Shown: piece after piece, positions 581 through 64,000 of the stretch
How positions within the stretch are numbered: position 1 is the stretch's first letter
How the letters are laid out: every line of letters begins with the position of its first letter
Assembly (NCBI GenBank): GCA_905178155.1
Contig: CAJINV010000014.1
Span: forward strand, 62,001-126,000
Length of the DNA stretch: 64,000 bases
Direction: 5' to 3'
From: Amoebophrya sp. A120
Taxonomy: Eukaryota > Protista > Dinoflagellata
Program-made: the position numbers and the translations under genes
The notes under the pieces: generated by a model
Database searches by the model: none
What the model saw: the letters and a program-made list of their open reading frames with translations, nothing else
What the model was told of the DNA's origin: nothing

Positions 581-3500
581 ACAGGTCTGAGAGGACCCAC
601 AGCCGTCGGTGAAGGCAGCGGATGGAATTTGGCTCCACGAAGTCTCCGAGTTCACCTTGATCCACATCAGGTCGTTGTCGGTCGCGCTATGAAAATTGTC
701 GCTGTGAATGCCTGACCCGTCGAGCGACTTGGAGAGGTCCGTGTCCGGGGGCGGGCTCCCGCGGACGCGGGCGACCACTTGTAGTCTCTTGTCCGCTGGG
801 GCAGATCCCACGGTCATGAAATAAAACTCGGCCTCGCTCTGCGTCAGCTGCTCGTCGCAATGGTGCACGGGGTCGGCGACTAGATGGCACTGATCGATGT
901 CATATCCTGTCCAACCTGTCTCAATGGTATTTTCTTGCTTCAGGCACCCCGGTCGCATCAGGTAGCACTTTCGTTTTCCGCTCTCCGCACTATCCTCGAG
1001 GAAGAACGAGGCGCAGTCGTGTGTTTGCGCGCACAAGTACCGGCACTGGTCCAGGTTATAGTTATGGAAGCGTCAGGATTGAAATCGTCAAAGTTGAAAT
1101 AGTTTGTGACGCATAAAATGCAACCCACAAAATGCCTGTCTTGCAGAGTAGGCAAGGGAGGCAGATTGCAAGCCTGTTGAGGGGTAGACATAGAGCTGCT
1201 AAAGCAGCACGACAAACGGCGTCTCCCTTACCCAAACAGCACTACAGACTGGATTTCGGTTCTACCCAAATTTGTCATGCTTTGCTTAGAAACTGGGCTC
1301 CAACTGGCATGCGTTTTCTGCATCACGAATTATTTCAACTTTGACGATTTCAATCCTGACACTCCCATAATAGTTGCGGTCCTCGTACATGCTGACGAGG
1401 ATGGTCGCATCATAGTCAGGTGGTGAGTCATCACCATTTTATCAAATGCAAAAATGTAGTGTCGGTCTGGAAACCTGTGATGCTAATAAAGCGTAGATGG
1501 CGGAAGAACTGCTTCTCTTCCGAATGCAGCACTACAGCATGACAACTTTCCAGAGCGCTTTGTTCTCATACGCAATCCGCATAAGAAGCTGCCTTTTTGC
1601 ATGAAAACAGTGGCTGCCACTTTTGTTGGTTCTGCAATATAGGTTTTCTTCCTTTCCAGGAGTGTTGAGCTAGCATTACAAGTCCACTTTTCCAGACCCA
1701 GACGCATTTGCATTCGATACTTCTTTATACAATTTCTCATCCGCGTACGCCCCCCCGGGTAGACACAGGCCCTACTACAGCGAAAAATGCCCCCACCCCA
1801 TTGCTGCGGCGCCTGCCGTGCTACTTCGGTGACACGTGACTGCGTCCTGCTGTCCGCTGACAGTGCTACCGCTGCTTCCCCCAGTGATGCCACCTACGGA
1901 CAAAACACGGGGACACGATTGCGGCCTCCAAGTGCCGCCCCCGGGGTCCGTCTGTGCTTGTAGTGCAGGAGCCTATGCTGACGCATCGGGAGAGGGTAGG
2001 ATTGGAAAGGGGGGAGAGATATTTATTTTGTACAGAATCAGCCAGAGATAGATCATCCTTTGGATGATCGTAGGCTTCCAGTGGGAAGCCGTCTTCACCG
2101 GAAGGGCATGAGCGCCCGCGATGGGGCACCCCGCCAACGCCGAAGGGGCCACGCGCCGAAGCAACCCCGAAGAACCCGCAGGAAGCGAAGCGACCCAGCG
2201 ATGAATTTGGGGGACAACATGCCCCATCGAAAAGGCCGCGGAGCCCTGGAAGGCGGGAAAGCAATATAAGTCCAAGCCCCGAAAAAAAAAAAAAACACAG
2301 TGAGCTACGTAATGTGGGACCGGAGGTTTCCCTCAGCCTGCAAGGCAGGCGATATAACGAAAATCCGTAGCAGCCCCAAAACAGCGCGCAAGCAATGGCG
2401 CCAAAGACGCTAAATAGCGCCGACCTTGGTCGTTTTATCCGTGACCTTTCTCGCAACGTAAAATTGGCAAAGGCCAGACACAAAAAGCCCTATGGGAGCT
2501 CAAAAACCCCAACGGAATACAACAAGCCCCCGGCTTTTCTTATCCCAGTCTCCCCCTCTGCAAGGGTAACGGATTGGGCTCGGAGCCCGTTTACCGCCAG
2601 TGCCAAACAGCCGAGAAAGGTCAGGATAAAAACAACCAAGGTCATTGAGATTGACCGCGGAAAATCATAAGTCCAGCCGGGGTGTAATTTCAACCCCACC
2701 TCACCAGACAAAGCGAAGCCAGAATCTCTGACCGAAATGGGTCAGGGCTTGCAGTCAAACCATCCGGCCAGGGTTTCATCGTAACCCCGTCTCGCCGGAC
2801 AATCTCAATAAAACATCTGGCCAGGGTTTAATCTCAACCCTGTCCTCTCACCAGATAAAATAAAGCCCGGAATCAGTGACCGAAACGGGTCACCGGGGCG
2901 GAAAATAATAAGTCTGGCCGGGGCATAATTCCAACCCCGTCTCACCAGACAAAGCGAAGCCAGAATCGCTGACCGAAACGGGTCAGGGCTCGCAATAATA
3001 CGTCCAGCCGGGGTCTAATTTCAACCCCGTCTCACCGGACAAAATCAATATAACCATCTGGCCAGGGTCTAATCTCAACCCTGTCTTACCAGATAAATCA
3101 AAGCCCCTAATCAGTGACCGAAACGGGTCACCGGGGCGGAAAATAAAGTCTGGCCGGGGTTTAATTTCAACCCCGTCTCACCAGAGAAATACTCTTCACT
3201 ACCATGGCAGGGGCGTGACTCCCTGGGACCTGATAATAATAGAAATACAGACGGAAATAGAATCTCACAAGCGAAATGGCTTGCCGTCTCTTAATTGGGG
3301 GAACGTTCTCAGGTCCTGGTTACCAATGGCCGAAGGGCTGGGGTCTGTATAAAATACCGACCGACCAGCCTCAGCCTAGACTCACAGGCTCGCTAGACTT
3401 CTTCTGCCCGGTCATACATTTAAAGTGAAGGCTTTCAACATTTGGAAACTTCGCGTCACAAATTATTGCAACTTTCGGGGTCGCGGAATTTTTCACTGTA

Positions 3501-6500
3501 ATAGGCCCGTGTACTGTTTTGGACAACGGCTTGTATCTACCGGGAGTATCTGGTCCGCTTCTATGCAACCTTTCTTGTTTATGACAGTGCACAACTCCCC
3601 CCCCCTCATTTGTCATGCAAATTACCTAATCCACCCTTTGGCTATTGGCACTGTTTGCATGCCACATTTTGGGAGCCCAAATAGAAGTACACTCCAGTGT
3701 AAATTTGTCATGCAAAACCGGCACTCTTGCTGATGCTTGCGTTGCCGTTCATGCTATACAAATGCGGGGGAGGGGGAGCTGTGCACTGTCATATTGTTCT
3801 TATACAAGTCGTACATGTCCCACCCTTTCCCGTGGTGAAATTGTCCTGTGCATCTGGCTATGCATTGCAAATATGTCTGGGTCTGGAAGGTTGCAACTTG
3901 TCATGCTAATTTTGGATAGTGTGTGAAAAAATGAAAATCTGTGTTGCATGATTACCAAAAGCGGCCCACTTTTGACCAAGCTGAGAGGGAGTTTCTCATG
4001 CAGACGAGACATGATAGACAGAGGTCGGACAGACTCTGTCATGCTGGGTCATGTATGACAGACTTCACGCGTCATGGAAAACCTGCATGACAAGTCTGCC
4101 CACCATCCAGACCCAGACATATTTGCATTTGATACCGGCCTCGAATCTGTAGCATGACCAGTCTTCTTTTTTTATCGCGAAGGCAGAGCAACTTTTTCCG
4201 TTATCCACGTAATCGCGACAATGGTCGTGGCATTCCGCCACCGCCTCCCAATAGTTGTTCGCGCTGGTGTCTTCGTCGCCCATACCAATATCCTCCCACT
4301 GCTCGCAGCCGCCGCTCCACCATATCGGGCAGATCGGATCCGTAAAGTCCTGAACCAGTGACGTCCAAGCTGGCGGGTCAGGATAGCCCGCGTTCGGGTC
4401 ACACTCCCTTGGCACTGCGGCATCGGGACACCAAATGGCATCTGGGTGAGCGCTTTCCGACGTTAGGTACAGCCAGCTCCAGCAGCCGCCAATGTGGGCT
4501 TCGTGGCCTTGGATCTGCTGGTCCATGCCGATATTGCCAAAGTAGGGGGTGTCCGGATCCTGTGCCTGCAGTACTCCCGCTCGCTGCGCCCCGAGGATGG
4601 TCACTGCTTTATTGAAAGGAAAGACTTCCCCTCCCCATATCGAAAAGGCATGTTTCCGAAAATTTGCGTTGCTGATTTGAGGTCACAAATCATTTTTGTC
4701 TTGCAAGAAGACAAGAGCAAAAGCTTCGCCCCCATTATGGAAGCGATTCCTCACGCTGTTTGACCTAAGTAAAGGGCAGCCGTTTGCCATGCTGAGCTAC
4801 TAGATACGCCCCTACATAGCCTGGGGATCTGGCCGCAATACCTCCCTGCAATACAAAGCTGATTTGTGTACACAAATCCAGCATCAGAAAATTCGTTTTG
4901 ATATAGGGAGGGGGGATTTTTCCTTTCGATATGCTTTATCGAAGAGCGCCCTTGAAGCGGAGGAGGACGACGAGTCCTTGATATGCTCCGGCACGTGCGT
5001 GTGCGCCGTGCCGGGAGGGGGCATCAAAGCAAAGAACTGCCACTCCCGCGGCTCCGGATTCTCGGTGCGGCCCCCGGTGGCTTTTGCCCTCTTCACTGGG
5101 TCCCGGTTGTTCCACAACACGCAGCACGTGCTGTTCTATCAAATGCAAAAGTGTCTGGGTCTGGAAGATTGCCAGGTTTGTCATGCATTTTTTGCATGAC
5201 GCCTAATGCCTGTAATGCATGATCTAGCAACACAGTTTAGAGGCTTTCCTAAAAATGCCTACTCCGCATGAGAAATGCCCTCTCTGCGTAACACAAACTG
5301 GAGTCCTGTTGCCGGTCATGCAATACAGATTTTTTTGGAATCCACAGACAGCACTACAAGTTGCAATCTTCCAGACCCAGACATTTTTGCAATCCATATG
5401 TTCATCTTGATTTTATCTTTGACGCCACCGCCGCTGTCCAGTGGGAGGAGCAGTGCGCTGATGTTAGAGGTCTCAAAGTTGTAAACGCGGCTTATGGGGT
5501 TCTCAGACGTTACATTCTCCACTGTTACATGATTTGTCATGCAAAATGACCATGACCCGCCAGACGATCAAGCTGCTGCGCATGACAAATTCTCGGAGGG
5601 CTAAACAGCACTTGAATCCGGACCAAACCTGTAATGCAAGACGCGCAAGGTTCTCCCTCTCACCTGTGCTAGTCTTCATCCATAATACAAATTCATGTAA
5701 CAGTTGAGAATGTAACGCTTGAGAGCGCCATACGGTTTGCTACAGGGATCTCGGTGTCGTCCGCGGAGCTGAGGTTGATCCTGAGTAAAAACGTCTCCAC
5801 CCCAGCGCTGTCATGCAAATCTGCATGCCAAAAATGTTTCTCATGCGGAGCCCCACGAGAGGCATTTTCTAGTCGTGTTTTGGAATTTGTGATGCTACAA
5901 TGAGCCTTATGCGCTAGATCTGTGATGCTGCTGACCTACCTAAAGCAGGATTATACTACGAGGACAAAGCTGTCATGCGAAACAACCAAAGCTGCTTGAT
6001 TTGTCTAGCAGATTTCCCATCTTGACTCTGGTGTGGGGAGGTTTTTACTCAGGATAAGGCTTCCCTTGTATACACTGAAAGCCGTGCAGCCCATTTGGGT
6101 TCGGCACCGGTCGGCACAGTCGTGTGGGTGGCCGCCGAACGAGAACCGACCACCCTGCCCCAGAAGATTTGTGGTCGCGCTCCAAGTTTTTTTTTCTGTT
6201 CCATCGCACTGCCCGTACGCACCCCACAGGTCCGTCTCTTGCCAACTATAGGGCTCTGGATCTCTGGCGTTCTCAACTGTTACACCCTCAGCTGTTACAT
6301 GGATCTGTGACGCAAGAATGGCAAAAGTGAAAGGGGGGACCTTGCGCGTCTTGCATAACAGACTTGGCGCAGATTTCTGGCCTGGTTGGCTCTTCGAGAA
6401 TTTGTCATGCGAACCAGCTTGATCGCGTCGAGTCTGGTTGTAATTTTGCATGACAAATCATGTAACAGTTGAGAATGTAAAATTTGAGAACGCCATATGA

Positions 6501-9500
6501 TCGCTGGCGTCCCCCGCCGACAGGGCGACATACCCTCCTGCAAAATTGCGCTGATAGTACTCCACGGTGTTCAGTTATGCAAGAACAAGAAACGTGCTAC
6601 ATCAGTTCTTACACGTTGTGTTGCAGAACGTGCAAGACAGACAACCTCTCTCATGCTGGAAAGCACCATGCGAGCCTTGTTTCATACGTGTTTTCCCTTT
6701 TGGGATCTCTGCATTGCAAGTTTTCTTTGAACTGCAGAGCAAGTTTGTGTTGCTAAAGTTGCAACAAATGTGTAACTGTAACACTTTTTTCTTGGGATAT
6801 CAGTATGGTTTTCCGGCAATCCGTGGTCATCTCGGTCGCTTGGCAGTTTTCATCCGGTTGCGTTTTCCAGCTGTCTGCGACCAACATACAGCTATCGTAT
6901 TGAAGACCGGAAGTAAGGACGAACACGAACCCCACGCATTCCAAATTGTGAGCGCAGAAGTTCATGCACTCGTAGTAGGTCCTTAACCCAATTGTGCGGT
7001 CTCCCCCGAAAATCCCGGCGCTCTTTATCCGCCGCCCCCCGTCGTGGTTCGCTTTGTCCTCGCGTATTGCAGTGAAAAATGCCCCCCACCCCTGAAATTG
7101 CAAATCCCAAAGAAAACTTTTTGTCATGCATGAAAGAAGTATGAATGTTTCTGATGCAGAGTGTGGGTGTGTATCGCATCGCTTGCATGACAAGCGCCGC
7201 TCTTGCTGGGGTCTGTTGCAATACAGTTTTTTGCTATTCACGATCGGAAACCTGTGATGCTGATAGATACAAGAGGGTGAGTGTTTCATTTGGAAAGGTT
7301 TGCAATACAAATGCTCCCAAGTTCTTCGGGGGTGGGGGCATTTTTCATTGTAATATCGCGCGCGCAGTTCTCGTAAAGCTGGTCTTGTGCGTTTACAAAC
7401 GGACTTCTGACCGCGGCGCCACTGTTTGCGGAAGTAGTTGTGGCGTTCTCAAACGTTACACTCTCAACTGTTACATGATTAGTATTTACATTGCTTGACT
7501 TCCGGGTTCTGGTACAGCATACCCCCGGCGACAGGTGACCTTGACAGGTGACCTCGACAGGTGGCCTTGACAGGTGACCTCGACAGGTGACCTCGACAGG
7601 TGACCTTGACAGGTGACCTTGACAGGTGACCGCGACGGGTGAACGCCCTGCCTTCCCCCGCTAGTGCTTCGCGCACTAAGCCACTATGCGCGCGCCTGGT
7701 GTGAGGCGAGGGGCGGACGCTGTCCGCCCCGATGCCGAACACCTTTCCCCCACTAGCGCCACGAGGGACGGGCACAAGGCCCCAGCGTGGGGACCCTGTC
7801 CCCACGCTCGAGTGGGCCTTGTTTGTCATGCAAAATTCCCTTCAGAATCGGCACCATCAAGCTGCTTCGCATGATAAATTCTCAGAGGCCTAAGCAGGCT
7901 GATGCTCTGTGCCAAATCTGTCATGCAAGACGCGCAAGGCCCCCCGTTTCACTTTTGCCATTCTTGCATTAGCATTACAGATTCATGTAACAGTTGAGAA
8001 TGTAACGTTTGAGAACAACTTCATAGTAGTAGCCACGACCCTGCTGTTGCTCGTTGTCGCGCCCGCGGTGTTGAGCAAGGACGTCGATAAACCTCCTCCC
8101 GAGGAGGCGGAGCTCATCTCCGCCCCCGCCCTCCTCGCCCCGCGGCGGCTTGTTCCTTCTCGTTGTTCCTGTTTTGCGGCCCTCTGCGACTCTACAGTGG
8201 CCTGCAGCAAAGCTGCAGAAGTCTCACGACCGCGACCACCCGCAGGTGAATGCTGTGGTGATCGTTGTCCCCCGGGTTGTGTAATTCTGCCTGTGTTCAA
8301 CATATACATAGTTTCATCTTCTATTGCAACATCTACGGGCACCGCGGCTGGTCGTGCAGCAGCAGCAGGAGCAGGTCCTGCCATCTCGTCGCCGGGCGGG
8401 GCATCGAATGGGTTAGTATCGTTGTCCTCTGCCGCGTCGGCCGCTTTGTAAGAAGCACTCCTACTAGAGGTGGTCCTCGTGGCACCAGGCGGCCTCCCCT
8501 TTATTTTGTCAGGACGACCAAGAACATCTTCAACATCTTCGGTTCCCTCGTCATCCCCATGCAAATCTTCTGCGGAGTAGGCGGCCCCGGCCGCGAGAGC
8601 AGCAGGCTGTAGTCGCGCACTGGGCCGCGAGATGGCTTTTTCTTGTTGAAGACCTTCTTGTTGGTCCTCCTGCCCACTCGGGTCGTGAAGTAGAAATTGG
8701 TCCTGCAGAATCCAGGAAAAAACACCCATCCCTTTCCCCATTTTTTTGTCATACAGAACCTGCATAATAATTCTCAGTGTCTGTGATGCAAAAAATGGAT
8801 GGGGATGGGTGTTTTTTCGTGGATATGCAGCCCGACGTCCAGCTGGTCGTGAAGCTGAACTTCTTCTCGCGTTTCTGTCACTGAAGCTGACCTCCGAGGA
8901 GATGTTGCTGCTGACACCGCGCCGCCGTCCACATCTTCGTGACGACGAAGGCTCAGCTCCTCCTCGTGCACGACCAAGAGTTGCTCTCTTGGCCTCGCCA
9001 GCTTCTCGCCCTGAATAGAAACTACAGCGTTTGTTCTCCTTGCACCGTCGGTTTCAGCGGCATCTTGATGTAGTGCCCGACCGGTATCATCTTGTTCCAC
9101 CTCAACATCGTCAACATCCCCGGCATATCAAATGCAAAAGCGTCTGGGTCTGGAAGATTGCAACTTGTCATGGTAAATCTGAAGCATGCAAAAATCTGTG
9201 TTGCATGAGTGCCAAAAGCTATCCACTTTTGACCAAGTTGGAACGGAGTTTCTCACGCAGAATAGGCATGATAGGGATCTCACAGAATGTCTGTCATGCT
9301 AAGTCCCGCATTCCAGACCTCGCGGGTCATGGAAAATCTGCATGACAAGTCTACACTCTTCCAGACCCAGACATTTTTGCACTTGATACAGCAGAGGACC
9401 CCCCGATTGGGACGTAGCGTTGCGTTTTTCCTTCAGCCGGAAGGGTCGTATGATCTGCAGCTGGAAAATATGCGGGTGCACAGCTCGACGTCGTCCCACG

Positions 9501-13016: not shown

Positions 13017-13219
13017 GAAAACAGCGAAATAGCTCTGGCTTTCTCGTCCCTGCTCCTGCGAGCAATGAATGTAATTAAGCAATTATACCAGGAGCGAAAT
13101 GTTGATCGCTTGGAAGTTTGATCTTCACTACTTGTGCTGAGCGAGTATTCTCTTGTTGTGCTTGGCCGCTTTTCTTTATTTCATTACATGGGCGACCAGG
13201 GAACAAACATTACATGGGC

Positions 13220-14300: not shown

Positions 14301-14523
14301 CAGGTGATCAAATTTATCAAAGCCCGGGACCTCCCTGTTGCTGTGCTTTATAAGTATATGATATGATAATTGCTACAACGCTACCGGGTAGACCACCCGG
14401 GAGATCAAGTTGAAGCTCGAGATATAATAGCACTTGTTGTAGTGCTGACGTGGTAGGTTGTGCCTTTTTTTCATGTCCTTACGTCTTGTAGTGCTGGCCG
14501 CCGGCGCCTATCATCTACTATCT

Positions 14524-16546: not shown

Positions 16547-16744
16547 CTTTTTCTTTAACAATAGCGGGGATGGACCGGAATAGTAGCTCCCACTGGAAGG
16601 GAAATTTGAAAAGGAGAGACGTGGAGGAAATAGTCGCTGCAGGTGCAGCCCGTCCCGCACCTTCTTGCAGATCTCCACGTGGAGATCGTCCACCCTCCCC
16701 GTGGGCGGCGGGAAGATCCTCAGGATGAAGTAGATCCACTGACA

Positions 16745-51800: not shown

Positions 51801-54800
51801 CCCGTTGAGGTATACGTCTGACAATTGCACCGATGTCTCAATGCCGTCACCAGAGCGGCAGGCTCGAACGAAGATCACGAATCCGGTCACGTTCCTCGGG
51901 TTTCCGTCTCGGAATGCGATTTCCCACCACTGCGCCGACTTTTCGAAAGAGGAGAACCAGCATTGATCGCAATAACCAGGGTTACCCCAGTAGCTCTCAA
52001 AACCCTGGTTGCAGCAGGCTTCCCCGGTCTGGAGGCCGAGGCCCGTGAACTCGTTTGGATATCAAAACGAAAAATCCCGCCCCCTCCCCATATCAAAACG
52101 AAGCTTCTGACGCTGGCTTTGCGCACACAAATCAGATTTGTGCTGCTGGAGAGGACTGCAGGCGCATACTATGCCTGAGTAGAGAGGTTGCGGCCTAGGC
52201 GCTTAGCATGAAAAACGTCCGCGCTGTAGGCCCAACAGCGTGACAAACCGCCAACATAGTGCGGCGGAGCCTGTGGAGTTGCCTGGTTGCAAGACAGATT
52301 TGATTTGTGGCCACAAATCAGCAACACAAATTTTCGAAAACGAATCTCGTCATTCAATATGGGGAGGTGGGATTTTTCCTCGCGATATTGGAAACTTTCG
52401 CTTCAGAGGCCAATCCGGGTAGTACTCCCAACACGCCTTCCACTGCCACCAGCCCTTCCCCGTGCGTCGGCGACGACGATTCCACCAGCGACGACGATTA
52501 TGCCATTGACAGTGCTATGCATTGCAAAAGTATCGCACGACTCGTAATAATTATCGTATCCGTAGGCATGCGCATGCACTCTAAATAAAGTCCTATTTAA
52601 CGTAGATCCGCATTTGGTGCACAAGTTGCATTTTTTATGGCATCGGAAATACAAATTTATTTTCGTACGATTTATACGTTATAAGAACGTATAAATCGTA
52701 TGAAAATGACTTTCCGACTTATACTAAGAAAGTACGATACTTGAACTTGTTTTGCAAATGCATAAGGTCTTCCCGCCGGTGTTTACTATGTCTCCTGAGG
52801 ATGAGTACGTCAGCCCCTTCAGTTGCCAGGTGCTCTTCGCCTTCACAGCGAAGGTTTTGCCTCCGCTCGCGTCGGTGGGATCTATGAACCGGCCTATGAT
52901 GCCAGTCGGCTGCGGTGCAAACCTGCTCATGCTCCGCCCCTCTCGTGTCGCGGTCGTCCGATGCACTAGAGTTCTCGCTGACGTCGCGGCTGCGCTACCC
53001 TGTGCAAAAGTATCGCAGTCGTATTGCAGTCATGCATATACAAATCTTTTTTTAAGGTCAATCCGCATATACAAATTTCTCATGCTGAGGTGGAAATTTG
53101 TAATTGTAAATGCATTTATTTTTATACGAGTGCGATATAATTACTTCTGCAATTCATATGCGCCGCTCGTTGATCGCGACGCTGCCGATGCCGAGTTTCG
53201 TCGTTGTTGCAGCTCCACGAGACTATGAAGAGGAAACGCCAACGCCCCCCTCCAAATACTACTCAAGGTGAACTACAACTTCTGATGCTCTGACTTGGGG
53301 CCACAGATCAGCAGCTTTGTCTTGATGCAGAAACGGACTGGAGCAGGTGATGTATGCTACGTCTGTTTAGCTTCGTCCTACTCCTAGATCAACACTACAA
53401 GCCGTTCAACAAGATATAGCTAGACGCTGCTACTGTAGCGAGGCTCGCACGCACGTGCTGCATATTGCCTGTCCAGTGCTTCCTTTCGCTCTTGTAGCCT
53501 CTGCCTCCCACTTGCATTCTACATAAATCAGGAACAGAAATTTTCCTTAACTTACGGGGCGTTTTCGATATTATGGGGACGTTTTCCTCGCCGTAGGAAC
53601 GGCCCGCCGCGCGCGCGCTTGTCGTGTCCCGCGAGAAAACAGCCAAAGACGTAGACGATGAGATATCAATCGCAAACGTGTAGTGCTCTCGGTCTGGTGG
53701 AAGGCTGCAACTTGTCATGCTAAGTCAACATCTGGATCGTGCAAAATAAAATCTGTGATGGTGCATGACTACCAACAGCTGGTATAATCCACTTGTGGCC
53801 AAGTTCTTGAGAGGGAGCTTCACACGCAAGATTGGCTCGGTAGAGACCTCACAGAATGTTGTGTCACGCTAGGTCGTCCTGCTCGCCAGACCTGATGTGT
53901 CATGGAAAATCTGCATGACATCAAACTTTGCACTCTACTTCCAGACCCAGACACTATATTTGCAGTTCTTGATACGAGACAGAGAGCGCTGATTTTCTTG
54001 TCGACAACATTGCGCCCGAACGATCTCGGTGCGCCATGCGCCGGTGGTCCTCCGCAGCTACCTTCTGCATCTGCTGTCTCTCCTGGTCTTCTTGCAGCAA
54101 CAGGAGCGGCGCAGAAGTCGTTACAGTTGTAATCGTACTAGCGTCGGGGCTACCAGGATGAAGAAGTTGACGTGGAATCACGCACACAGCGTAGTCTTCA
54201 GATGCGCCGAAAAACCGTTCAGCGGGCGCGCTTTTGCACTCGCCTTTGGACGAATTGGGGTCGTTTATTTTGCAACAAGCACCATAGTACGGGTTGCCTG
54301 TCTCTTCGTTAGGTTCTTTGGAGTTACATCCTTGACACCAGCCTTCTTTTGTGTACTCTTTTGCTACGTCGTCATAAGTATTGCAGGAATGCGGGCACTC
54401 CATCTGCCGTGGGCCCATTCTATCGTGTGGACCAAGCTGGGCTGCTTGAAGACTTCCAGGCGCATCACCACCTGTGTTCAGGACGCAGTGGTGGTATCCG
54501 AGAAGCTCGCCGTGGCCGTCCCTCTGAAAATGGCTTAGCGGAATCTGCTTGCACTCCGGCGGGTCATCTAAGTCGTCGGCTTTACAGCACGCCCCGGTGG
54601 CGGAGCCGTCCGCAGCATCGCACCCGGTACAAGTCCCCTTGCTGCCCCCGCACATCACCAGACACTGCTGCAGCTGTGGCCCACAGCTTTTATTCGTGCC
54701 GGGGTCGTGGCACCGCGGAACCGCCCCAGAACGCAGAAACACGGCACCGCCGCCGTAAGTTTCGTCGACATCCGAGTACGTCTGGTCGGCGTCCTATCCT

Positions 54801-57800
54801 GAGTAAAAACGTACCCACGCCAGAGTCAGGATGAGGATTTTGCAACACAAACCTAGGAGCTTTGTGCGTCACGCATGACAAGTTGCGCAATGCAGTGTAG
54901 TGCAGGTTAGCAAGTGCAGCCGCATCACAGATGCGTCTGCTCATCCTGTTCACAGCATCACAAATTCCAAAACACGACTGGAAATGGCTCTCATGGGGAT
55001 GCGCATTACAAGTCTTCCTGTCTTTGCAAATCTGCATTACAACTCTGGCGTGGGTACGTTTTTCCTCAGGATACGTCCTCGATGTGCGTGCCCGTCCAAA
55101 TTATCCTGTGGAAAATAAGCGACCTCCCCACGACCACACAAAATTTTCATGCAATTCTGCAAGCCTCAAATGTTTGTCTTGCAGAGCGAGGACCCCATGT
55201 TGAGGATCATTCTGTCATGCTGTCTGGCACTTTGTCATGGTAGAATCAGCATGAGCACCAGGGGATCGATTTTTTGTGATGCAGCTTGCTACAATTTAGC
55301 TAAGCGCGACGTTGACACGGCGATGAATCCGAAAGTGTCATGCGCGCCAGGAGCCAAAACTTGCCGGCCTTGTGTAGCCGAGTCCCCAACTTGATGGCTA
55401 TGGGGTGTTTATTATGTACAACTGGAGAAGCTGCAAGTAGGCCAAAATAAAGCACAGAGAAACTACTTCAAATCTATTTTAGGGAAGATGAAAAGGAGAG
55501 GATGGGGTCAAGGTCATCCTCATCTGATGGGGACAACATTATAGTTTTTGCATAGGATAAAAATGCAGGCGTTGTCACACTGGCTGCCCGACTTCTCGCA
55601 GAGGTTCTCGCCCGAGTTTGCCTTCGCCCCTTCATTGCTTTTTTCTAACTCGTCCGACGAGCACAGCCGGCGATTATTCAGGTGTTGGCATATCTTGACG
55701 GCCTCCGCAAAGGTGAACAGCCCGCCCTGGCCATCCGCCTGACAAGTGTCGAACACTCTGCCCGTGAGCGGGTGGGGAGGGGCGACGCAGTCCACCTTTT
55801 TCCCGTCCGTCTTGGTGTAAAAATTAACCGTCGACACAGCAGGCGCGTATCCAATATGGAAGCGCCAGGGTCGAAACAAATTGACAAAGTTGAAAGAATG
55901 TGCCACACAAAAGAATGAAGAGTACCAATTGATGAAGCTGCCCAGTTCATCTTCAAGGGGACGCATGGAACACTTTGGCAGCTGCAGCACCCTCGAGACC
56001 CAATTTATTATGTCATGTCCTTCTTCTTGTTCTTCTTTGCTCACCACAGAGGACCAGTGCTTTTGTCATCTTAATTTTTTTACCAGCTCGAGCTCTATGT
56101 CTATCTCAGGTGGCCCAATAAAAGAGGCTTACAAGAATCATGATCGGCTCCAGTCCTTGCCATCCCCGCAAGACGCCAGGCACTATAGGCCGATGCATTT
56201 TATACATCGCATCAAACTATTTCAACTTTGCGGATAATTTCGATCCTGCAGCTATCGTATCCAGGTCCACGGTATCAAATGCAAATATGTCTGGTTCTGG
56301 AAGAAAGAAAGTTTGTCACACAGGTTTCCCATGACCCATGAGGTCTACTGGAATCAATGCGGGGCCTAGCATCACAGATTTCCTGATCATGCCTATTCCG
56401 CATCACAAATGCCCTCTTGCTCGTCATGCAATACAAATCTTTTTAGGTGGGTCGAAACATCGCATCACAAGCTGCAACCTTCCAGACCCAGACACAGTTG
56501 CAATGCATACACGGATGTAGTCCTCGTCCCCACAGCAGAGAACCGGGAGTTTTGTGGTCCGCTTGTCTTTTTTGTGTTCCTCCGTTTGCTTGCCGGACTG
56601 GCAAGAGTCGTAGTTCCAGTCTGCATCGATCCAGTTCGTCGTATCACGAAGTTGCGCGCGTTGCACATACGCTTTAGATGCCCGGACGACGTCCAGAAAC
56701 ACCCGCTGCACGACGACGCCGTCTTGCCCGGGGACCAGTGCTAGCTCATAGATGCGTCCGTTACCGGCCGTGGGGTTGCCGGCATCGACCAGGTCGAAGG
56801 TGGTACTCACGTACCCAAGCCCGTAAGTAGCAGTTTCGGCCGCGTGCTGCGCGCTCGCCGCGCCATTCTCGGTGATATGAAAGCCTCAGGTTGGAAATCC
56901 TCAAAGTGAAAATTACTATCTATTATATTCATGCGAAAGTACTGGTCTAGAGAGGGAAAACGAGAGGTGGCAGGGAGGTCCAAAAGAGGTCAAAAGAGGT
57001 AAAAAAGAGGTCGACAGAGGTGGAGAGGTGGCGCGGAAGGTCATTCGGGAGGGTGGCCGAGAGGTGGCGCGAGTATAGCCCGCCGAACCGGTCGGCCTTT
57101 AGGGCCGCTAAGCGCCTCGGAGGGTGCCGAGAGGTAGAAAAGAGGGCGGCCGAGAGGTGGACAGAGGTGCAGAGAGGTTGCGCGAATAAGGGGAATCCTC
57201 TCGCGCACCCCCTGGGCCACCTCTCGACCACCTTTGTAGACCTCTACTGGCGAGTATAGCCGGATTAATAGCGGGGACCCCCAAAAGAGGTCAAAAAGAG
57301 GGTCTGCGAGAGGTCTGCGAGAGGGTAAAAACAGCAAGAAATTAATGGGCGCGGATCCGCATGGTGCTGCCCACATTTCGCACTGCAGGCCATTCGCGGA
57401 CTTGTTTTGCTCGGCGTCCTTCCGTGCCACCCACTTGCGCGACCCTCTCGCGCAACCCTCTCGCGCTACCCTCTCGCGCCACCCTCTCGCTCTACCCTCT
57501 CGCGCCGGGCGGCTTCTGTTCGCCCCCGGTGTTCTTTCCAGCTGCTCCCTGCGCAGAGCGCCCACAGGCGCGGGAAGCGCGCAAGCGGTCCTGCGGGTTG
57601 GCGCAACGCAAACAGGCGGCAGGACTCCAGTATGTTTCGCTATGCGCAGGCCCGTGGTGTTGCGGTCCAATCAACAAACAGTCTTGCCCCGGCCCAACAG
57701 CCTTGCGCTCCGGCGGCAGCCGGAGCATGGCTGGTAATTTGTAATGCAAAAAAACGACTCCAGTTAAGGCACCGCTTCTAGTCGGCGCATGACAAATTTC

Positions 57801-60800
57801 CCGGGCACTCAAAACGTGTCTGTCATGCTAGTTAGGCAAAGGAGTGCCCTTCTCTCATGCTACTCAGCAGCCCAACTCTGAACCCGTAGAAGCACAATAA
57901 TCGGCCTCCATTGCGTTCTCTGCAATACAGTCTTTTTGGTGTGGCATTTCATGCATCACAAATTATTTCCACGTTGAGGATTTCCATTCTGAGGGTGTCA
58001 TAGGTGAAAGCGTTCCTCGACACGGTCCGCCAGTTCGGCGGCGCCCTGGCCCCCTCCACCTTGACCCACAGAAACTCACTATCATCGTTTTCCTCCGGAT
58101 TGTAGTACTCGCTGCCCGGCACGTCACTCGGGGGCCGACCACGGACGCGCGCCGCCACGCGCAGGTGATGAGCGTCCGGTAGCGAACGCAGCCCCATGAA
58201 GTAGAATACTGCCTTGCTAGAAGACAGGTCCTGATCACAAGAGGCGCTGTCATCTGGACCGGTTTCGCACGTCCTGTGGCTGCCCCCCAGTTGGCGGGAA
58301 CACCAGATCCCAACAGGCCCGTGCTGATCCTGCTTCCCGGGCATCTCCAAATCGGTCCAGCACCCGTTCTTGCGAGCCGCTGCATGTCCGTCGATGTAAC
58401 GGTTGGTGGCGATACTGCCGTAGGCGACCGACGACAGCGTAGGATCGTCTACGTTGTTCGCGTACACTATACCGGCGCGTTCCGCAGTCACAATCTGAAA
58501 GCCCTTCTTATGGCGTTCTCAAGTGTTACATTCTCAACTGTTACACGGATTGGAATTGCAAGAACGGCAAAAGTGAAAGGGGGAAGATTGCGCCTTTTGC
58601 ATTACAGATTTGGCGTAGATTTAGATGCTGTTATGCCCTTCGGAGATTTGTCATGCGAGGCAGCTTCATCGTGGCGATCTTCATCTTGCTGGTAAATTTG
58701 CATGACAAATCATGTAACAGTTGAGAATGTAACGTTTCGGAGTCCCATACTTCTCGCGGTTCACCGCGTGATGGCCCGCGGGGACCTGAGTTTGCGCGGT
58801 GCCAGGGGCCGGTTGGAGCACGAAAAACTGCCAATTCCAGGTTCTTGTATTGGCTAACGGACCGGGGCTCCGGTTCAGGACCCGGTCGCTGACCGGGTAG
58901 CGGTTGCTCCACAGCATGCAGCAGGTCCGCTGCATCTGCTCCAAGTTCTCGACCGAGTCTTGTGCGAAGAGTGACTCGATGGAATCTGGGTGACGGTAGA
59001 CGGACTCAGTTTCGGGCACGACGCCATCCTCGTTGGCTTTTCCTTTGAAAACACTAAAGGACGTGCAGCCAACGGTGGAGCGACAGCGGTCGGCGCAAGT
59101 CTGGGGCTCCCCGTCAAACGGGGTAGTGATCAGGGTAGTGGTCAGGCGACTGAAGGTATGGAAAGAACAAAAGTTTATCATCGCTCCCACTCCACTACTT
59201 GTATTTTCTTATATTGATTGTGCAGGTCGTTTCAACATTATTGCATCTGAAATTCTTATATCTACTTCTGGCACCATCTTCACTTGTTACAGTATAATTG
59301 CAAAAACACAAGGCAAATGATCCCGTATGAAGTTGTTTAGGGTTGTGAAGGAGATGCATGTTGTTGATGCATCATGACTCAGATGATTTTTGTATTAAAA
59401 GAGCGCCGATGAGTGATCGTTGCGAAGAACTTTTTTGGTTTGATATAAGGCGGCTTCCTGGGGCCCGACTTCGCCGACTGCTTCAAATATCAGAGCGCAC
59501 AACTACTGCTCCTCCTCCCCCTCCTCACCGGAAGCAGGGCGTGAGCTGCAACACAGGAAGCGGCAGACACGTGGGCCCCGCATGACAAATCTTTTGCACA
59601 CGGCTTGTAGTAGTCTTTGAGGTTCTTGTTGTTCCAAATAAATCAGTCATGCAGAAGATACATAGTGATTATTTTGCATTCACAAATGAGGGGGAGGGGC
59701 GGGAGTTGTGCACTCCGATATCAAACAAATGGAAGCCACAAAAGCCCCAGGCTCCGCCTGTTTTGCTCAACGTTACCGCCGAAATTTTTTGATCCACATA
59801 CTCCCTCAAAGACACCCAAGTCCCGTACGGCGAGAGGAAACTTGGCAGGGTCCCTACAGTAATGCTGTTTGTTCCGTCCGAGGCGGTGATCGACGGCCCA
59901 GATATGGTGTAGCTGGCACCCTGGGCGAGCTCGTCGCTTCCGCCTCCACGGTCGATGTCTCGCCTGAACATGACGAAACCTGAGATGTGGCGTTCCGTGA
60001 ATTCGACTTTCCACCAGAAGTTGTTGTCGTCACTTTCCTTGTTGGCCCACCAACAGTAGTCGCAATATTGCCCGTCATACGACCAGGGCGCAGTTTGGTA
60101 CAACCGCTCATAGGGCTCGCTGTCCGGGGCCTGCTTGTTCGCTCGGTAGTCAGCCCGACACCGAAAACGGCACTCCTTGCTCCGTCTCCTTCTCCTTCCG
60201 TGCCCTCTTCTGCGAGTGCAGCGATTCGCAGAAGGATATTGAGCGGAAAAATCCCCCCTCCCCATATTGAAAAGGCGCGTTTCCAAAAATTTGCGTTCCT
60301 GATTTGAGGCTGCAAATCGCATTAGTTTTGCAAGAAGACAAAGGCAGAAGCTTCCGCCCCATTATGGAGGCGGTTAGTCATGCTGCTGGGCCTAAAGGGG
60401 AGCGGTTTGCCATGCTCGGCAACTAGACGCATACCCCCCTACCTAGCCTGGGGATCTGGCCGCAGTGCTTTCCTGCAATACAAATTTGCGTACACAAATC
60501 CAGCATCAGAAATTCCGTTTTGATATGGGGAGGGGGGATCTTTCCTTTTGATAAAGGATTCACGTTCACGAGTTCATTGGGAAACTTACGCGCCAGAGGC
60601 ATCTCCGGTACGTAGGGCAATTCTTTATCTTCCCAATTGCCGCTACTACTGGCTTCCATTTGCAGGTAGGGATGCACGAAGCGGCATCCTGAGTAAAAAC
60701 GTCCCCACCCCATAGTCAAGACTAGGCTGCCTAGGTTCTAGGTCAGAACTGCAGCCCAGCCAGAGCCTGCGGGACCCTGAGGGCAGTAGTCCCCAGCCCC

Positions 60801-63800
60801 TGCCAGCACGCGCATCGCAATAGATACCTCATATACACAGTGGCCACATAGATTATGCTTCTCTTCTCGTCGTAGTTCGTTCTCTCCTCTTTTCCTTTTG
60901 AAAATTTAAAACTTCTCTGTGCTTTAAATTGGTCTTTTCCAGTACATAAACACCCCATAGTCAAGATGGCAAATCTGCTAGACAAATCCGCAAGCTTCGG
61001 TTGCTTCGCATGAGAAGTTTGCCCTGGTAGTGTAGCCCCGTGTAGGTAGTAAAGCAGCATCACAGATCTAGCATACCATGCCGATTCTAGCATCACAAAT
61101 TCCACAGCACGACTAGAAATTGCGTCTCATGGGGCTCCGCACCAGACACTTTTTTGGCATGCAGATTTTCATGAAAACTCGCGGGTGAGGACGTTTTCAC
61201 ACAGGATAAGCTGCCCACGGACGGGGCGGCGGTGCTCTGTTCGAACAGCCAAAACCCACAAAAGACGAATATGGGACTCTCAAGCGTTTCGCTCTCGACT
61301 GTAGTTACATGATTTGTCATGCAAAATTACCATGAGCCACCACACGATGAAGCTACCGAGCATGACAAATCCCCGAGGGGCTACTTAGACAGCACCTAAA
61401 TCTGTGCAGAGTTTGCTATGCGAGTTGCACGCTTGCCCCTTGCACTCAGTGCCACTGTTTCGGTTCTTGCGTCACAAATTCTACATTCATGTAACAGTTG
61501 AGAATGTAACGTTGGAGAACACCATACCGAACGACTTCCCGTCGGAGTGAGAAATTTCGATGGAGGAGTATGGAAGCTTCCGGATCGAAATCGACAAAGT
61601 TGAAATCATTTGTTGCGCATATCAAAATGGATACCAGTTGGTGCCCAGTTTCCAAGAAGTGCTGCCTGCATGACAAATTTGGGTAGAGCCTGAATCCAGT
61701 TTGTCATGCTGTGTGCGAAAGGAAGACGCCTTTTGTCATGCTACCTTAGCAGCTCCATTTCTACCCCTCAACTACAGGCTTACGACCTGTCTCACTTGCC
61801 TACTCTGCAAGACAGGCATTTTGTGGCAGTGGCTTGCATTTTATGCACGTACAAGTTTTTCTATTTCTTCATCCACTTTGTTGATTTCGATTTTGACGCT
61901 TCCATACGGAGATTTTTCGCTCCAGCGGGACCCAGCTTCCGTACACGGAAATTGGGCTGGGCAGCGTGCTATCCTGTGCAAAAGTATCGCAGTCGTACTG
62001 ATCGCATTCGTCGTTCGTTCGTTCGTGTGGATCGGCTCTGCCGACCGGGTAACCCATCGCCTTGCATATAAATGACCGACATAGGCGAACCCCGTTGCGG
62101 GACATACAAATGGCCGCACGGAAGGGCCCTAAGCGCTACATACATAGTTCACCCTAGCGCCTACCACTTCGGTCGGGACTGAGTCAGCCTGGTCCTGGGG
62201 GCTCACAGCGCATTCATGCATTACAAATTTCTTTCTCAAGTTGAATCCGCATTACAAATTCTATTTCTCATGCTGAGGTGATTTGTCATGCGGTTTATAC
62301 TAGTACGATGCTTTTGCATTTCATACGTGCCGCTGTGGTTGTCGCTTAATTTGTACACCGCGGAGTTAATGTTCGCGTCCACGTCACTGCCGATCTGCCG
62401 CCCGAAAATCACAAAGCCGGTAATGTGCCGGCTATCAAATTCTGCCTTCCACCACGTGGCTGTTCCTGCGGCTGCAGCGGCCCGAAAGCAAAAGCTGCAG
62501 CCATCTTTGATACAGCGTGCCTGCTCGCACGAGGAGTCCCCCATGTTGCAGTCGACATGGTTCCCGAGGTCGAAGAGCATGTTTGGCATATGTCGATACA
62601 ACACGTTGACCGGCGCATAGGTAGGATCATCACCCTCCGAGCCAGAGCCATCGTGGCCGCTCGACGTCACCCCGTTCACTAGGTCACCGCCTAGTTTATC
62701 CACAGAAAAAAAAACCTCCCCTTCCCCATCCATTTTTTGCATGACAGACGCAGAATTTCATGTATGTTGGATGTGGATGGGTCTTTTTTCCTGGTGGATA
62801 TATTTCAAAGCGTGTGGGATCCACAAACTGGCCCGATGTCCCGCTCGGTAGAGTGCCCACCGGTTGCTCTTTATTCTGGCCTTCACACTGCCCATACATC
62901 ACCCACGGATCGGTATCTTGCCACACGAAGGGACGGGGCGGGTCAGCCGGTGACCACTTTCCCCGCAGGGCCAAGAAGCCGCCCTCGAGCTCGTTTTTGT
63001 AATGGGATACCTGGGCTTTGACTATCAAAGGCAAAAATATCTGGGTCTGGACGATTCTGGGATTTGTGATGCATATTTTGTATGATCCATGACGCATGTA
63101 ATGTATGATCTAGCATCACAGTTTTTTGGGAGGCTTCCTGATGCCTATTCCGCATGACAAATGACCTCCCCGCATAACACAAACTGGAGTCCTGTTGCTG
63201 GTCACGCAATACACATTTTTTTAGAATTCAAAGACAGCATGACAAGTTGCAATCTTCCAGACCCAGACATTTTTGCAATCCATATTGACGGTTTCGCGAC
63301 AATCGGGAGTCATGCGGGTGGTCATGGCGCCAATGCGCGGCGGTGGTATGGCGTTCTCAAATCGTTACACTTTCAGCTGTTACATAATTTGGCATGCAGA
63401 ACTACGATCAGAGCCGACGCAAGAACCGAGCTTCTTCGCATGGCAAATTCGCGAAACGCCAAACAGGCTTAGAATCTTTGTCAGAGCTGTCATGCAAGAC
63501 GCGTGAGGTCATTCCTTTCACGTTCGCCATTCTTGCATTACAAATTCATGTAACAGATGAGAATGTAACGTTTGAGGACGCCATAGGTGGTACGTGAAGG
63601 GCATGGAAGCGTCAGGATCGAAATCAATAGAATCGAAATGATTATGATTTGTGAAGACGCGGCATACAATCGAAGATGCGACCAGCTGGAGCCTCAGTCC
63701 TCTCCAAGTGGCGCGTGACAAATTCCGGCGCCACCAAAATCGAGTCCGTCGTGCTGTTTGGGCAAAGAAGACTGCTCCTGTCATGCCACTCTGGCAGCGC

Positions 63801-64000
63801 ATCGTCTTCCCTTAAACAGGCTTGCAATCGGTCTCATTTGCCTGCTCCCCAACACAGGCCCTACTTTCCCGACATTTAATGCATATGCAAATTTTTCGAC
63901 TTTGTCGATTTCGACCCTGCCACTTCCATAAGGGGCCCAGATTCCGTATTCTTCGTACAGGGGATCAGCCGTGTACATGTGGAAGCCGCAGATAGTGAGT
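48887..64000 (-). CDS. Gene A: paralogous giant Cys-rich adhesin-like protein, 5'-partial, 29 introner introns in window
   Basis: Same modules as genes B and D (WQDTDPWVMYGQC, TCADRCRSTVGCTSF, CCMLWSNRYPV, FYFMGLR..ARVRG, GPxQxxC...GACC...CVIP) plus lectin-like WWKAEF/WWKVEF modules. C-terminus YNEV|SGSFTGGIIDMECYR...SQST* (TAG 48887) is homologous to the end of gene B. Confidence 0.87.
51230..51446. mobile_element. Introner family N (2 copies)
   Basis: TATCAAATAAGAAAAACAGTTCGCCACGATCACT...AGTGACTGCGACAAACTTTTTTCTCTCCATA; repeat TGCAT. Second, inverted copy at 59157-59445. Confidence 0.8.
55102..55559. mobile_element. Introner family M (single degenerate copy)
   Basis: TATCCTGTGGAAAA...TTTTGCATAGGATA; repeat CAAAT/AAAAT. 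Removal gives CDNACI-W-TGTH, matching paralog CDHRCIWTGSH. Confidence 0.8.
56876..58002. mobile_element. Introner family K carrying a nested Helitron (copy 2, opposite orientation)
   Basis: Perfect GGTGA repeat. Reverse-complement similarity to 9962-11141, including the Helitron position. Confidence 0.9.
56913..57734 (+). mobile_element. Non-autonomous Helitron, copy 3
   Basis: A|TTACTATCTATTATATTCATGCG...GCTCCGGCGGCAGCCGGAGCATGGCTGG|T. Confidence 0.82.
60722..60950. mobile_element. Insert with 16-bp target duplication inside a family D introner
   Basis: CACCCCATAGTCAAGA at 60706-60721 and 60951-60966. Confidence 0.75.

What the first reader, a model, noticed from the sequence alone, without database searches (positions are those of the whole stretch)
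581..63930. Genes encrypted by about 107 TAT...ATA inverted-repeat elements that must be removed precisely without GT-AG signals
Seen: almost every coding stretch is interrupted every 15-800 bp by a TIR element flanked by a variable 5-bp direct repeat. Deleting element plus one copy restores frame and paralog-conserved residues at all about 60 junctions translated; gene B exons sum to 6540 nt and gene C to 1083 nt. Boundaries lie in arbitrary 5-mers, so no fixed GT/AG exists. Known: non-canonical introner elements with inverted and short direct repeats are described in Amoebophrya, and to my knowledge their removal mechanism is unresolved. Inferred: a structure-guided excision system acts either on RNA (non-spliceosomal or modified spliceosome) or on DNA (like TA-bounded ciliate IESs).
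Basis: partly seen in the sequence, partly recalled or inferred. Interest (0 to 1): 0.95.

Follow-up and report, generated by a model that had tools for sequence, protein, structure and literature searches.

The report
Hairpin introns with one fixed cut
In this marine parasite of algae, 106 transposon-like hairpin inserts break up the genes and are missing to the exact base from transcript assemblies; the inserts are a known kind, but the cut falls at one fixed position at all 20 junctions that can show it, exposing an invariant UA that likely acts as a relaxed splice signal.

Summary
Observation confirmed. I find 106 complete TAT...ATA inverted-repeat elements (plus one cut by the window start), 54% of the window; 75 have a perfect flanking 5-bp repeat. 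Removing element plus 5 nt opens 1219-, 2180- and 1899-codon frames. Two joined frames equal database proteins labelled Amoebophrya sp. A120. These are the published A120 introner elements (PMC7789003), so the phenomenon is known; the scan has similar notes from other genomes.

Not found in the texts I read: imperfect repeats fix the cut. At 20 of 20 informative junctions only one register fits: the intron starts 1 nt before the hairpin and ends 4 nt after it, following the gene's strand, not the element's orientation. Intron +2 U and +3 A are then invariant (106/106; 161/161 strand-called elements in a second assembly), while the mirror bases at the 3' end drift. There is no G+1 or AG preference.

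Removal is almost certainly from RNA, not DNA. Most likely (0.5) a modified spliceosome reads a relaxed donor while the hairpin positions the 3' cut. A nuclease plus RtcB-type ligase is the main rival (0.33). No lariat, snRNA or inhibitor data exist here.

The parts
542..11364 (-). Gene A (5' part; continues beyond the window start), 1219-codon frame after removing 17 elements; Cys-rich protein with weak PAN-domain matches
   Evidence: joined frame = P0002 over 1128 of 1128 aa. Elements: 1063-1369, 1440-1719, 1773-3503, 3580-3793, 3859-4134, 4610-4931, 5137-5398, 5493-5732, 5777-6056, 6263-6497, 6576-6799, 7065-7355, 7439-8025, 8709-8825, 9126-9388, 9469-9740, 9962-11141
26086..47204 (-). Gene B, 2180-codon frame after removing 48 elements; paralog of A and D; exact 5' end unresolved
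   Evidence: one 7182-nt contig of X5 fits exon lengths across 38 elements. Elements: 26171-26440, 26478-26666, 26721-26973, 27027-27337, 27388-27648, 27813-27956, 28055-28301, 28814-29104, 29257-29470, 29554-29805, 30246-30553, 31115-32226, 32350-32510, 32695-32915, 33045-34480, 34534-34872, 35084-35396, 35448-35702, 35718-36038, 36105-36365, 36513-36759, 36809-37087, 37260-37606, 37702-37922, 37998-38291, 38334-38682, 38861-39175, 39259-39612, 39717-39932, 40116-40272, 40354-40501, 40650-40922, 40965-41226, 41292-41556, 41639-41800, 41879-42024, 42060-42318, 42370-42677, 42952-43340, 43389-43694, 43729-43956, 44001-44311, 44378-44537, 45058-45338, 45675-45975, 46184-46463, 46563-46718, 46769-46934
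48890..63999 (-). Gene D (3' part; begins beyond the window end), 1899-codon frame after removing 29 elements
   Evidence: joined frame = P0003 over 1899 of 1899 aa, 29 of 29 junction peptides verbatim. Elements: 49015-49344, 49492-49800, 49876-50141, 50187-50474, 50633-50863, 50936-51144, 51230-51446, 52060-52387, 52516-52764, 52996-53158, 53224-53595, 53664-53974, 54795-55073, 55102-55559, 55855-56259, 56273-56509, 56876-58002, 58509-58749, 59157-59445, 59488-59720, 60237-60553, 60685-61208, 61270-61526, 61569-61906, 61970-62325, 62697-62800, 63023-63284, 63347-63585, 63602-63930
22680..24839 (-). Gene C, 368-codon frame after removing 4 elements (22731-22994, 23116-23352, 23413-23679, 23917-24184)
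   Evidence: frame only, no transcript or protein check
16170..18032 (-). 400-codon frame after removing 3 elements (16745-16868, 16923-17215, 17285-17515)
   Evidence: frame only; no Pfam match for two exons
18037..18979 (-). 99.2% copy of 29871-30813 of gene B, carrying the same element (18412-18719 = 30246-30553); not an independent insertion
11585..22636 (.). Four elements outside the frames above: 11585-11740, 14894-15811, 19701-19958, 22382-22636; treated as minus strand in my counts, unverified
549..580 (-). 5' end of a further element whose other end was not found in the window; transcript contigs of X5 and X7 leave the window sequence at 581
1440..1719 (-). Informative element, imperfect repeat: at most 1 base of the downstream copy is kept
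   Evidence: joint 1434/1720 in X5, X6, X7
3859..4134 (-). Informative element: at most 1 base of the downstream copy kept
   Evidence: joint 3853/4135 in X5-X8
6263..6497 (-). Informative element: at least 1 base of the downstream copy kept; 3' end reads AGA instead of AUA and is still removed
   Evidence: joint 6258/6499 in X5, X7
9126..9388 (-). Informative element: at most 1 base of the downstream copy kept
   Evidence: joint 9120/9389 in X5, X6
9469..9740 (-). Informative element: 1 to 4 bases of the downstream copy kept
   Evidence: joint 9464/9742 in X5, X6
9962..11141 (-). Informative long element (1180 bp) with a nested repeat: 1 to 3 bases of the downstream copy kept
   Evidence: pieces 9742-9957 and 11143-11411 adjacent in X5 record 2
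45675..45975 (-). Informative element: at most 1 base of the downstream copy kept
   Evidence: pieces adjacent in X5 record 9
33045..34480 (-). 1436-bp element predicted from a 1441-nt shortfall in the transcript contig, then found with a perfect 5-bp repeat; interior uncovered in X5 and X7, covered in X1
31324..32177 (.). About 850-bp second repeat nested inside an element; related copies at about 10235-11107 and 56910-57735
   Evidence: 84% over 870 bp; 81% over 567 bp

Best explanation
The elements are transposon-derived introns: transcript-like contigs lack each element plus 5 nt to the base, and the only cut that fits all 20 informative junctions starts 1 nt before the hairpin and ends 4 nt after it, which likely lets a modified U2-type spliceosome read the hairpin's first bases as a relaxed donor site. 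Steps: (1) shown: non-autonomous elements with terminal inverted repeats sit in both orientations inside exons, flanked by a variable 5-bp repeat; that the repeat is a target-site duplication made by an unknown transposase is inferred. (2) shown: the mature sequence keeps repeat bases 1-4 from the upstream copy and base 5 from the downstream copy, so the intron reads N-UAU...AUA-NNNN. (3) shown: +2 U and +3 A never vary and +4 is U in 100 of 106, while +1, -2 and -1 carry no G or AG preference. (4) inferred: U+2/A+3/U+4 are read as the remnant of a GU-type donor (U6 ACAGA box; a divergent or absent U1 snRNA), with the frayed AU-rich stem end opening for it. (5) inferred: the inner stem holds the 3' end next to the 5' site and sets the second cut 4 nt past the stem, replacing AG recognition. 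Because the repeat is symmetric, either orientation supplies a donor, so almost any exonic insertion would be tolerated.
For: Exact skips of element+5 at 15 of 15 listed joints in gene A (3 more joints not shown) plus one from adjacent pieces; a gene B contig fits across 38 elements, 2 of which were found from its lengths. Register: 10 junctions from contigs and 10 from P0003; register 1 fits 20 of 20, registers 0, 2, 3, 4, 5 fit 13, 14, 11, 7, 5; 7 junctions need at least 1, 6 need at most 1; chance under a free register 6e-6. P0002 and P0003 are 100% identical only in register 1. Both element orientations within a family exclude the mirror register. First two element bases deviate 0 times at the 5' end and 13 times at the 3' end, p=2.4e-4 (genes A, B, D only 0 vs 11); the 3' rate equals the repeat mismatch rate (p=0.63), the 5' rate does not (p=2e-6). 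Replication with detection blind to the last 3 bases: 161 strand-called of 281 elements in loci L001-L152, 5' UA 161 of 161, 7 deviations at the 3' end. All 18 'predominant' non-canonical motifs in Table S4 of PMC7789003 have T at +2, and A25 repeats start TTA, giving the same +2 U, +3 A from an unrelated family. U1-70K, U1A, U1C, U2AF, SF1 and PRP8 are listed for A120. Loss of U6 m6A favours U at +4 (PMC13326754).
Against: Nothing here tests the machinery. G+1 is at background (35 of 106) and AG ends only 8 of 106 introns, although the second spliceosomal step normally docks on them (established knowledge). +5 is C as often as G and +6 is never U, so the likeness to a yeast-type GUAUG donor (recalled) is three bases and could be the transposon's own end. 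No strand-biased internal word that could be a branch site stood out. Exons of 8, 10 and 11 nt lie between two hairpins. [quoted passage not shown] G-U versus A-C mismatches in the stem show no strand bias (114 vs 100), so selection on RNA pairing is not shown. The A25 register rests on the paper's aligner placement, which may favour T at +2. X5-X8 are one sample, RNA by the tool's guess only, contigs drop rare isoforms, and the annotated proteins may derive from related RNA data.
Confidence: 0.5

Rival explanations
1. A spliceosome-independent system removes the hairpins from RNA: a structure-guided endonuclease cuts 1 nt before and 4 nt after the stem, needing UA on the 5' arm, and an RtcB-type ligase joins the exons (a precise version of SOS splicing, or of the Euglena nonconventional route).
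For: No G+1 or AG preference; ends pair in 84 of 94 predicted folds; very short exons; animals excise inverted-repeat transposons from mRNA through AKAP17A, CAAP1 and RTCB (PMC12779559); Euglena uses a hairpin with fixed spacers to each cut (PMC12501133).
Against: SOS splicing cuts at several sites and leaves indels, whereas one register fits 20 of 20 here. The invariant bases fall at +2/+3, the donor positions, in A120 and by the paper's table also in A25. The purine at exon +1 required in Euglena is weak here (68 of 106, p=0.04; 95 of 161). RTCB does not occur in the supplement text; its presence in this organism was not tested.
Confidence: 0.33
2. The elements excise themselves from RNA as small ribozymes, or through an RNA-only reaction helped by a chaperone.
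For: Stable predicted hairpins (mean about -95 kcal/mol for 94 elements under 420 nt) and a fixed cut geometry.
Against: Many unrelated families from 104 to 1731 bp share only their ends and a short strand-symmetric word; either orientation works; nested inserts are tolerated; no Rfam family in the window.
Confidence: 0.05
3. The elements are cut out of DNA in the expressing life stage, like ciliate internal eliminated sequences.
For: Inverted repeats around a 5-bp core resemble recombination sites; X5-X8 are RNA only by guess, and 3667 joints of DNA run X1 were not shown, so rare empty sites are not excluded.
Against: Register and conserved bases follow the gene's strand, not the element's orientation. 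X1 contigs run through whole elements at depth 39-45, the same as unique DNA. X5-X8 depth differs between runs of like size (37, 6, 25, 3) and falls towards the 5' end of gene A (37 to 7), as for RNA. The published introns were called from RNA-seq. X1 may be the sample the window was assembled from.
Confidence: 0.03
4. The skips are reverse-transcriptase template switching across a hairpin between short direct repeats.
For: Hairpin plus direct repeat is the classic substrate for this artefact (established knowledge); no direct RNA reads were available.
Against: Switching at the hairpin base would keep the downstream copy, which fits only 5 of 20 junctions. Frames of 1219-2180 codons and paralogs conserved at 36-43% identity need every element removed in the cell. 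An artefact would not conserve U+2/A+3 on one strand.
Confidence: 0.02

Closest known systems
Introner elements / non-canonical introns of Amoebophrya sp. A120 (Farhat et al. 2021, PMC7789003)
   Same: Same organism label (P0002, P0003), same end motif (TAT, seven loose bases, A run), inverted ends, short direct repeats, about 240-265 nt, many families, no GT-AG, transcript support.
   Different: The paper gives repeats of 3-5 nt, calls the splice sites variable relative to the hairpin and the border unknown, and sees no clear terminal signature. Here the repeat is 5 bp, one register fits all informative junctions, and +2 U/+3 A are invariant. Its Table S4 already lists only NT-NN motifs; its figures could not be seen.
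Non-canonical MITE-derived introns of Fritillaria borealis (Henriet 2019, not read; seen through PMC11282704 and PMC13326754)
   Same: Inverted-repeat, target-duplication introns without GT-AG, attributed to an adapted U2 spliceosome.
   Different: Those have favoured ends (AG-AC, AG-AT) and a conserved U1 5' end; here the terminal bases are free and only +2/+3 are fixed.
Nonconventional introns of Euglena (PMC12501133; review PMC11282704)
   Same: Hairpin joins the ends, direct repeats at junctions, cuts at fixed spacers from the stem, machinery unknown.
   Different: Euglena signature is N3-CDG...CHG-N5-6 then a purine; here 1 nt and 4 nt spacers, UAU...AUA ends, and a purine preference that is weak at best. 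Circular release is reported for Euglena, untested here.
SOS splicing (PMC12779559)
   Same: Removal of inverted-repeat transposons from mRNA without GU-AG.
   Different: SOS splicing is imprecise and leaves indels; here up to 48 removals per gene keep one frame.
Ciliate internal eliminated sequences (recalled, no call)
   Same: Short inverted-repeat elements interrupting coding sequence at high density, TA-like ends.
   Different: Those are removed from DNA and leave one TA; here the whole TAT...ATA goes, one variable 5-mer stays, and the DNA contigs keep the elements.

Membership tests
Amoebophrya A120 introner elements | Inverted repeats at both intron ends | tested here: met
Amoebophrya A120 introner elements | Direct repeat of 3-5 nt at the borders | tested here: met
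   5 bp; 75 of 106 perfect, 98 of 106 at least 4/5
Amoebophrya A120 introner elements | End motif TAT, seven loose bases, run of A | tested here: met
   TAT at 100 of 106 5' ends; A at positions 11-15 in 60-91 of 101; motif
Amoebophrya A120 introner elements | Non-GT-AG ends, absent from transcripts | tested here: met
   5 of 106 GT-AG-compatible; skips in X5-X8, RNA by the tool's guess
Amoebophrya A120 introner elements | Repeated families, no internal transposase | tested here: met
   9 clusters of 2-32 members, 35 singletons in the window; no Pfam match for 5 frames inside 4 long elements
Amoebophrya A120 introner elements | Organism | tested here: met
   joined genes A and D equal P0002 and P0003, source label Amoebophrya sp. 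A120
U2-type spliceosomal intron | GU at +1/+2 | tested here: not met
   U+2 106 of 106, but G+1 35 of 106, background level
U2-type spliceosomal intron | AG at the 3' end | tested here: not met
   8 of 106
U2-type spliceosomal intron | Branch site and lariat release | not testable with these tools
   no raw reads of this strain; no strand-biased internal word
U2-type spliceosomal intron | Pairing with U1/U6 snRNA and need for the spliceosome | not testable with these tools
   no genome held; snRNA alignments in the supplement are pictures
SOS splicing substrate | Inverted terminal repeats able to pair | tested here: met
   ends paired in 84 of 94 folds; necessity untested
SOS splicing substrate | Several cut sites, indels left behind | tested here: not met
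   one register at 20 of 20; contigs may hide rare isoforms
SOS splicing substrate | Needs AKAP17A, CAAP1, RTCB | not tested
Euglena nonconventional intron | Signature N3-CDG...CHG-N5-6 followed by exon purine | tested here: not met
   logos
Ciliate IES (features recalled) | Removed from somatic DNA, one TA left | tested here: not met
   whole TAT...ATA removed; elements present in X1 contigs at unique-copy depth; other life stages not examined

The most novel reading that the evidence does not exclude
Amoebophrya A120 runs tens of thousands of introns through a splicing code with a single fixed geometry, N-UA(U)...hairpin...NNNN, in which neither terminal base of the intron matters: a spliceosome that has dropped both G+1 and the 3' AG and measures the 3' site from an RNA stem, or a new precise nuclease-ligase system, turning any insertion of these transposons into a scarless intron.
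Probability: 0.7. Interest if true: 0.85.

Novelty: already known. Interest (0 to 1): 0.6.

Why it matters
How more than 60% of Amoebophrya A25/A120 introns are removed without GT-AG has been open since 2021, partly because direct repeats hid the true borders. A fixed register and an invariant U+2/A+3 give exact intron ends, so lariat versus circle sequencing, snRNA searches, inhibitor tests and minigene mutants now have base-level predictions. If the spliceosome does it, its second step can work without the conserved terminal G/AG contacts. If it does not, this is a precise, genome-wide relative of SOS splicing. The rule also fixes gene models in this lineage.

Tried and rejected
No whole genome is held and the second assembly's loci are not searchable, so snRNAs and RTCB were not examined. 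No RNA holder listed on record. In one search the joints table was swamped by repeat artefacts of X1 (15 shown, 3667 not), so empty DNA sites were neither seen nor excluded. Paralog alignment as a test of 5 versus 2 or 8 nt was weak (44 of 79). G-U versus A-C asymmetry in the stem: none beyond the terminal pair, and the 8 terminal A-to-G changes are explained as well by transition bias. A purine preference at intron +1 (70 of 106, p=0.015) did not clearly replicate (96 of 161). No dinucleotide bias at the cut (p=0.15) and no strand-biased 4-6-mer after allowing for the number tested. No Rfam family or tRNA in the window; no match in viral contigs. Pfam: only sub-threshold PAN/MANEC matches in 5 of 24 queries and one likely spurious match. 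P0001 turned out to be a paralog, not gene B; no database protein for gene B was returned. Review PMC13149111 held none of my five terms.
Full report
Observation. A scan for any 5-bp direct repeat enclosing inverted ends found 60 pairs, 50 of them TAT...ATA, and none in 2 shuffles. Iteration, inspection, transcript lengths and frame breaks brought the set to 106 complete elements, 104 to 1731 bp long (median 265 for the first 101) and covering 53.5% of the window. A further end at 580 has no partner in the window. Of 106 repeats 75 are perfect, 23 match 4/5 and 8 match 3/5; permuted flanks give 0.8 perfect on average. One element is a copy inside a 943-bp duplication. Twenty-seven of the 106 were set by eye or by fit, so their ends are less independent than the 79 automatic ones.

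Genes. Removing each element plus 5 nt opens minus-strand frames of 1219 (A, 17 elements), 2180 (B, 48) and 1899 codons (D, 29), and smaller ones of 368 and 400. Removing 0, 3, 4, 6 or 7 nt breaks them (on the first 101 elements); with random offsets the longest open stretch in the same frame averaged 296-379 codons in 300 trials per gene. Frame alone cannot separate 5 from 2 or 8, and paralog alignment did so only weakly (44 of 79). A, B and D are Cys-rich paralogs with sub-threshold PAN-domain matches. Joined A equals P0002 over 1128 of 1128 residues and joined D equals P0003 over 1899 of 1899; both carry the source label Amoebophrya sp. A120. No GT-AG intron is needed in those spans.

What it is. 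PMC7789003 (read: abstract, sections 10, 11, 12, 16, 25, passages, supplement text; figures not visible) describes introner elements in A120 whose inverted repeats start with TAT, seven loose bases and an A run, with 3-5-nt direct repeats, about 240 nt long, supported by RNA-seq; it calls the splice sites variable relative to the hairpin and the border unknown. The window's elements meet every feature tested. The phenomenon is therefore known.

Transcript evidence. No holder was on record as RNA; X5-X8 are contigs of one sample, RNA by the tool's guess. On gene A, 15 of 15 listed joints skip exactly element+5, 3 further joints were not shown, and one more junction follows from adjacent pieces. 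On gene B a 7182-nt contig of X5 gives three direct junctions and spans of 172 and 226 nt that match prediction; two spans fell short by 1441 and 278 nt, and each led to a missed element of exactly that length minus 5. X5 and X7 have no depth at 33312-33975 inside a long element, where X1 has 44.6; X1 contigs run through whole elements at depth 39-45. X1 may be the window's own source, and contigs drop rare variants.

The cut register. Where the two copies of the repeat differ, the mature sequence shows which bases survive. Ten junctions from contigs (8 in A, 2 in B) and ten from P0003 are informative; 7 require at least one base of the downstream copy and 6 allow at most one. Only 'one base' fits 20 of 20; the other five registers fit 13, 14, 11, 7 and 5. 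P0002 and P0003 are fully identical only in that register; the published models were built from transcript alignments, so they are a proxy for RNA, perhaps not independent of X5-X8. Of the 31 imperfect elements, 11 were uninformative or had no data. The intron thus begins 1 nt before the hairpin and ends 4 nt after it. Elements lie in both orientations (13/19, 5/4, 4/2 in three clusters), and in two clusters both orientations exclude the mirror register (45058 and 9962 against 3859, 9126 and 63602; 5777 against 60685), so the rule follows transcription.

A hidden 5' signal. In this register +2 is U and +3 is A in 106 of 106, +4 is U in 100; +1 is G in 35 (background 31%), and AG ends 8 introns. 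The mirror bases at the 3' end deviate 13 times against 0 (p=2.4e-4), at the rate of repeat mismatches, and five such variants are still skipped in contigs (1773, 5777, 6263, 7439, 8709). All window genes share one strand, so I tested other DNA: a pattern scan returned loci from another assembly (152 stored, 411 kb), with elements up to 98% identical and no shared exons. Detection blind to the last three bases found 281 elements; a codon model (82 of 82 calls right, 12 no-calls on the window) assigned 161 to a strand (71 plus, 90 minus) and left 120 out. The 5' UA is intact in 161 of 161, with 7 deviations at the 3' end (p=0.016 by hand). Six more deviants were among the uncalled: five lean to the 3' end, one is undecided. 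Table S4 of PMC7789003 lists 18 predominant motifs, all with T at +2, and A25 repeats start TTA; aligner bias may contribute.

Mechanism. Strand-dependent register and conservation point to RNA. The fixed bases sit at donor positions, spliceosomal proteins including U1-70K, U1A, U1C, U2AF and PRP8 are listed for A120 while U1 snRNA was not found, and unmethylated U6 favours U at +4 (PMC13326754, passages). I therefore favour a modified spliceosome with a relaxed donor and a stem-measured 3' site (0.5). Against it: no G+1 or AG, +5 is C as often as G, +6 never U, no branch word, 8-11-nt exons, and no strand bias of G-U pairs in the stem. A nuclease-ligase route remains strong (0.33): SOS splicing removes inverted-repeat transposons from mRNA through RTCB but imprecisely (PMC12779559: abstract, passages, first quarter of the main text), and Euglena introns use fixed spacers from a stem (PMC12501133, passages). 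Self-splicing (0.05), DNA excision (0.03) and template switching (0.02) fit poorly. A strand-symmetric word, TGT-V-W-TGC, occurs 298 times in 97 of 106 elements and once in exons; it is likely a DNA-level site for the unknown mobiliser (inference).

Novelty. Searches returned no paper that states this register or the invariant U+2/A+3. The library lacks most subscription papers (Roy 2023, Henriet 2019 and Huff 2016 were not read), and Fig. 3 and Figs S19-S25 of PMC7789003 could not be seen and may show part of it. Also consulted as passages: PMC12130899, PMC11453091, PMC12621601, 10.1101/2024.09.05.611473; section 6 of PMC11282704. Earlier notes of this scan describe hairpin-bounded non-canonical introns in other genomes and none in this one; they are unchecked. 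Verdict: real, a known kind in its known host, with a new and directly testable rule for the splice sites. Interest 0.6.

Noticed in passing
window 31324-32177, 56910-57735, about 10235-11107: A second, GC-rich repeat of about 850 bp is nested inside three different elements, in both orientations (81-85% identical); the host elements at 9962 and 56876 are still removed exactly.
   Followed up: partly
window 33045-34480: Long element with a 75-bp internal direct repeat (33078-33149 and 34334-34408, 95%) around a 64% GC insert with long overlapping frames and no Pfam match.
   Followed up: partly
window 1773-3503: Longest element holds a tandem array of about 240-bp units (2657-3189) and a 207-codon frame without Pfam match.
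   Followed up: partly
window 56260-56272, 35703-35717, 63586-63601: Exons of 8, 10 and 11 nt between adjacent hairpin elements; the two in gene D are present in P0003.
   Followed up: yes
window 18037-18979 and 29871-30813: A 943-bp piece of gene B is duplicated at 99.2% with its element; the copy sits in a separate 246-codon frame.
   Followed up: partly
window 46998-47040 and 47600-47630: Element-end-like sequences with no partner and no flanking repeat near the 5' end of gene B, whose start is unresolved.
   Followed up: no
window 131-420: Inverted and dispersed repeats without a 5-bp direct repeat, inside the stretch that transcript contigs skip below 581.
   Followed up: no
window 6576 and 43729: Paralogs A and B have elements at the same aligned position (offset 0), possibly one insertion older than the duplication; six other pairs lie within 6 nt.
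   Followed up: no
window genes A, B, D and P0001: A tandem family of 1900-2900-residue Cys-rich proteins with PAN-like modules; my two searches returned only three members, all labelled A120. A surface or adhesion role is a guess.
   Followed up: partly
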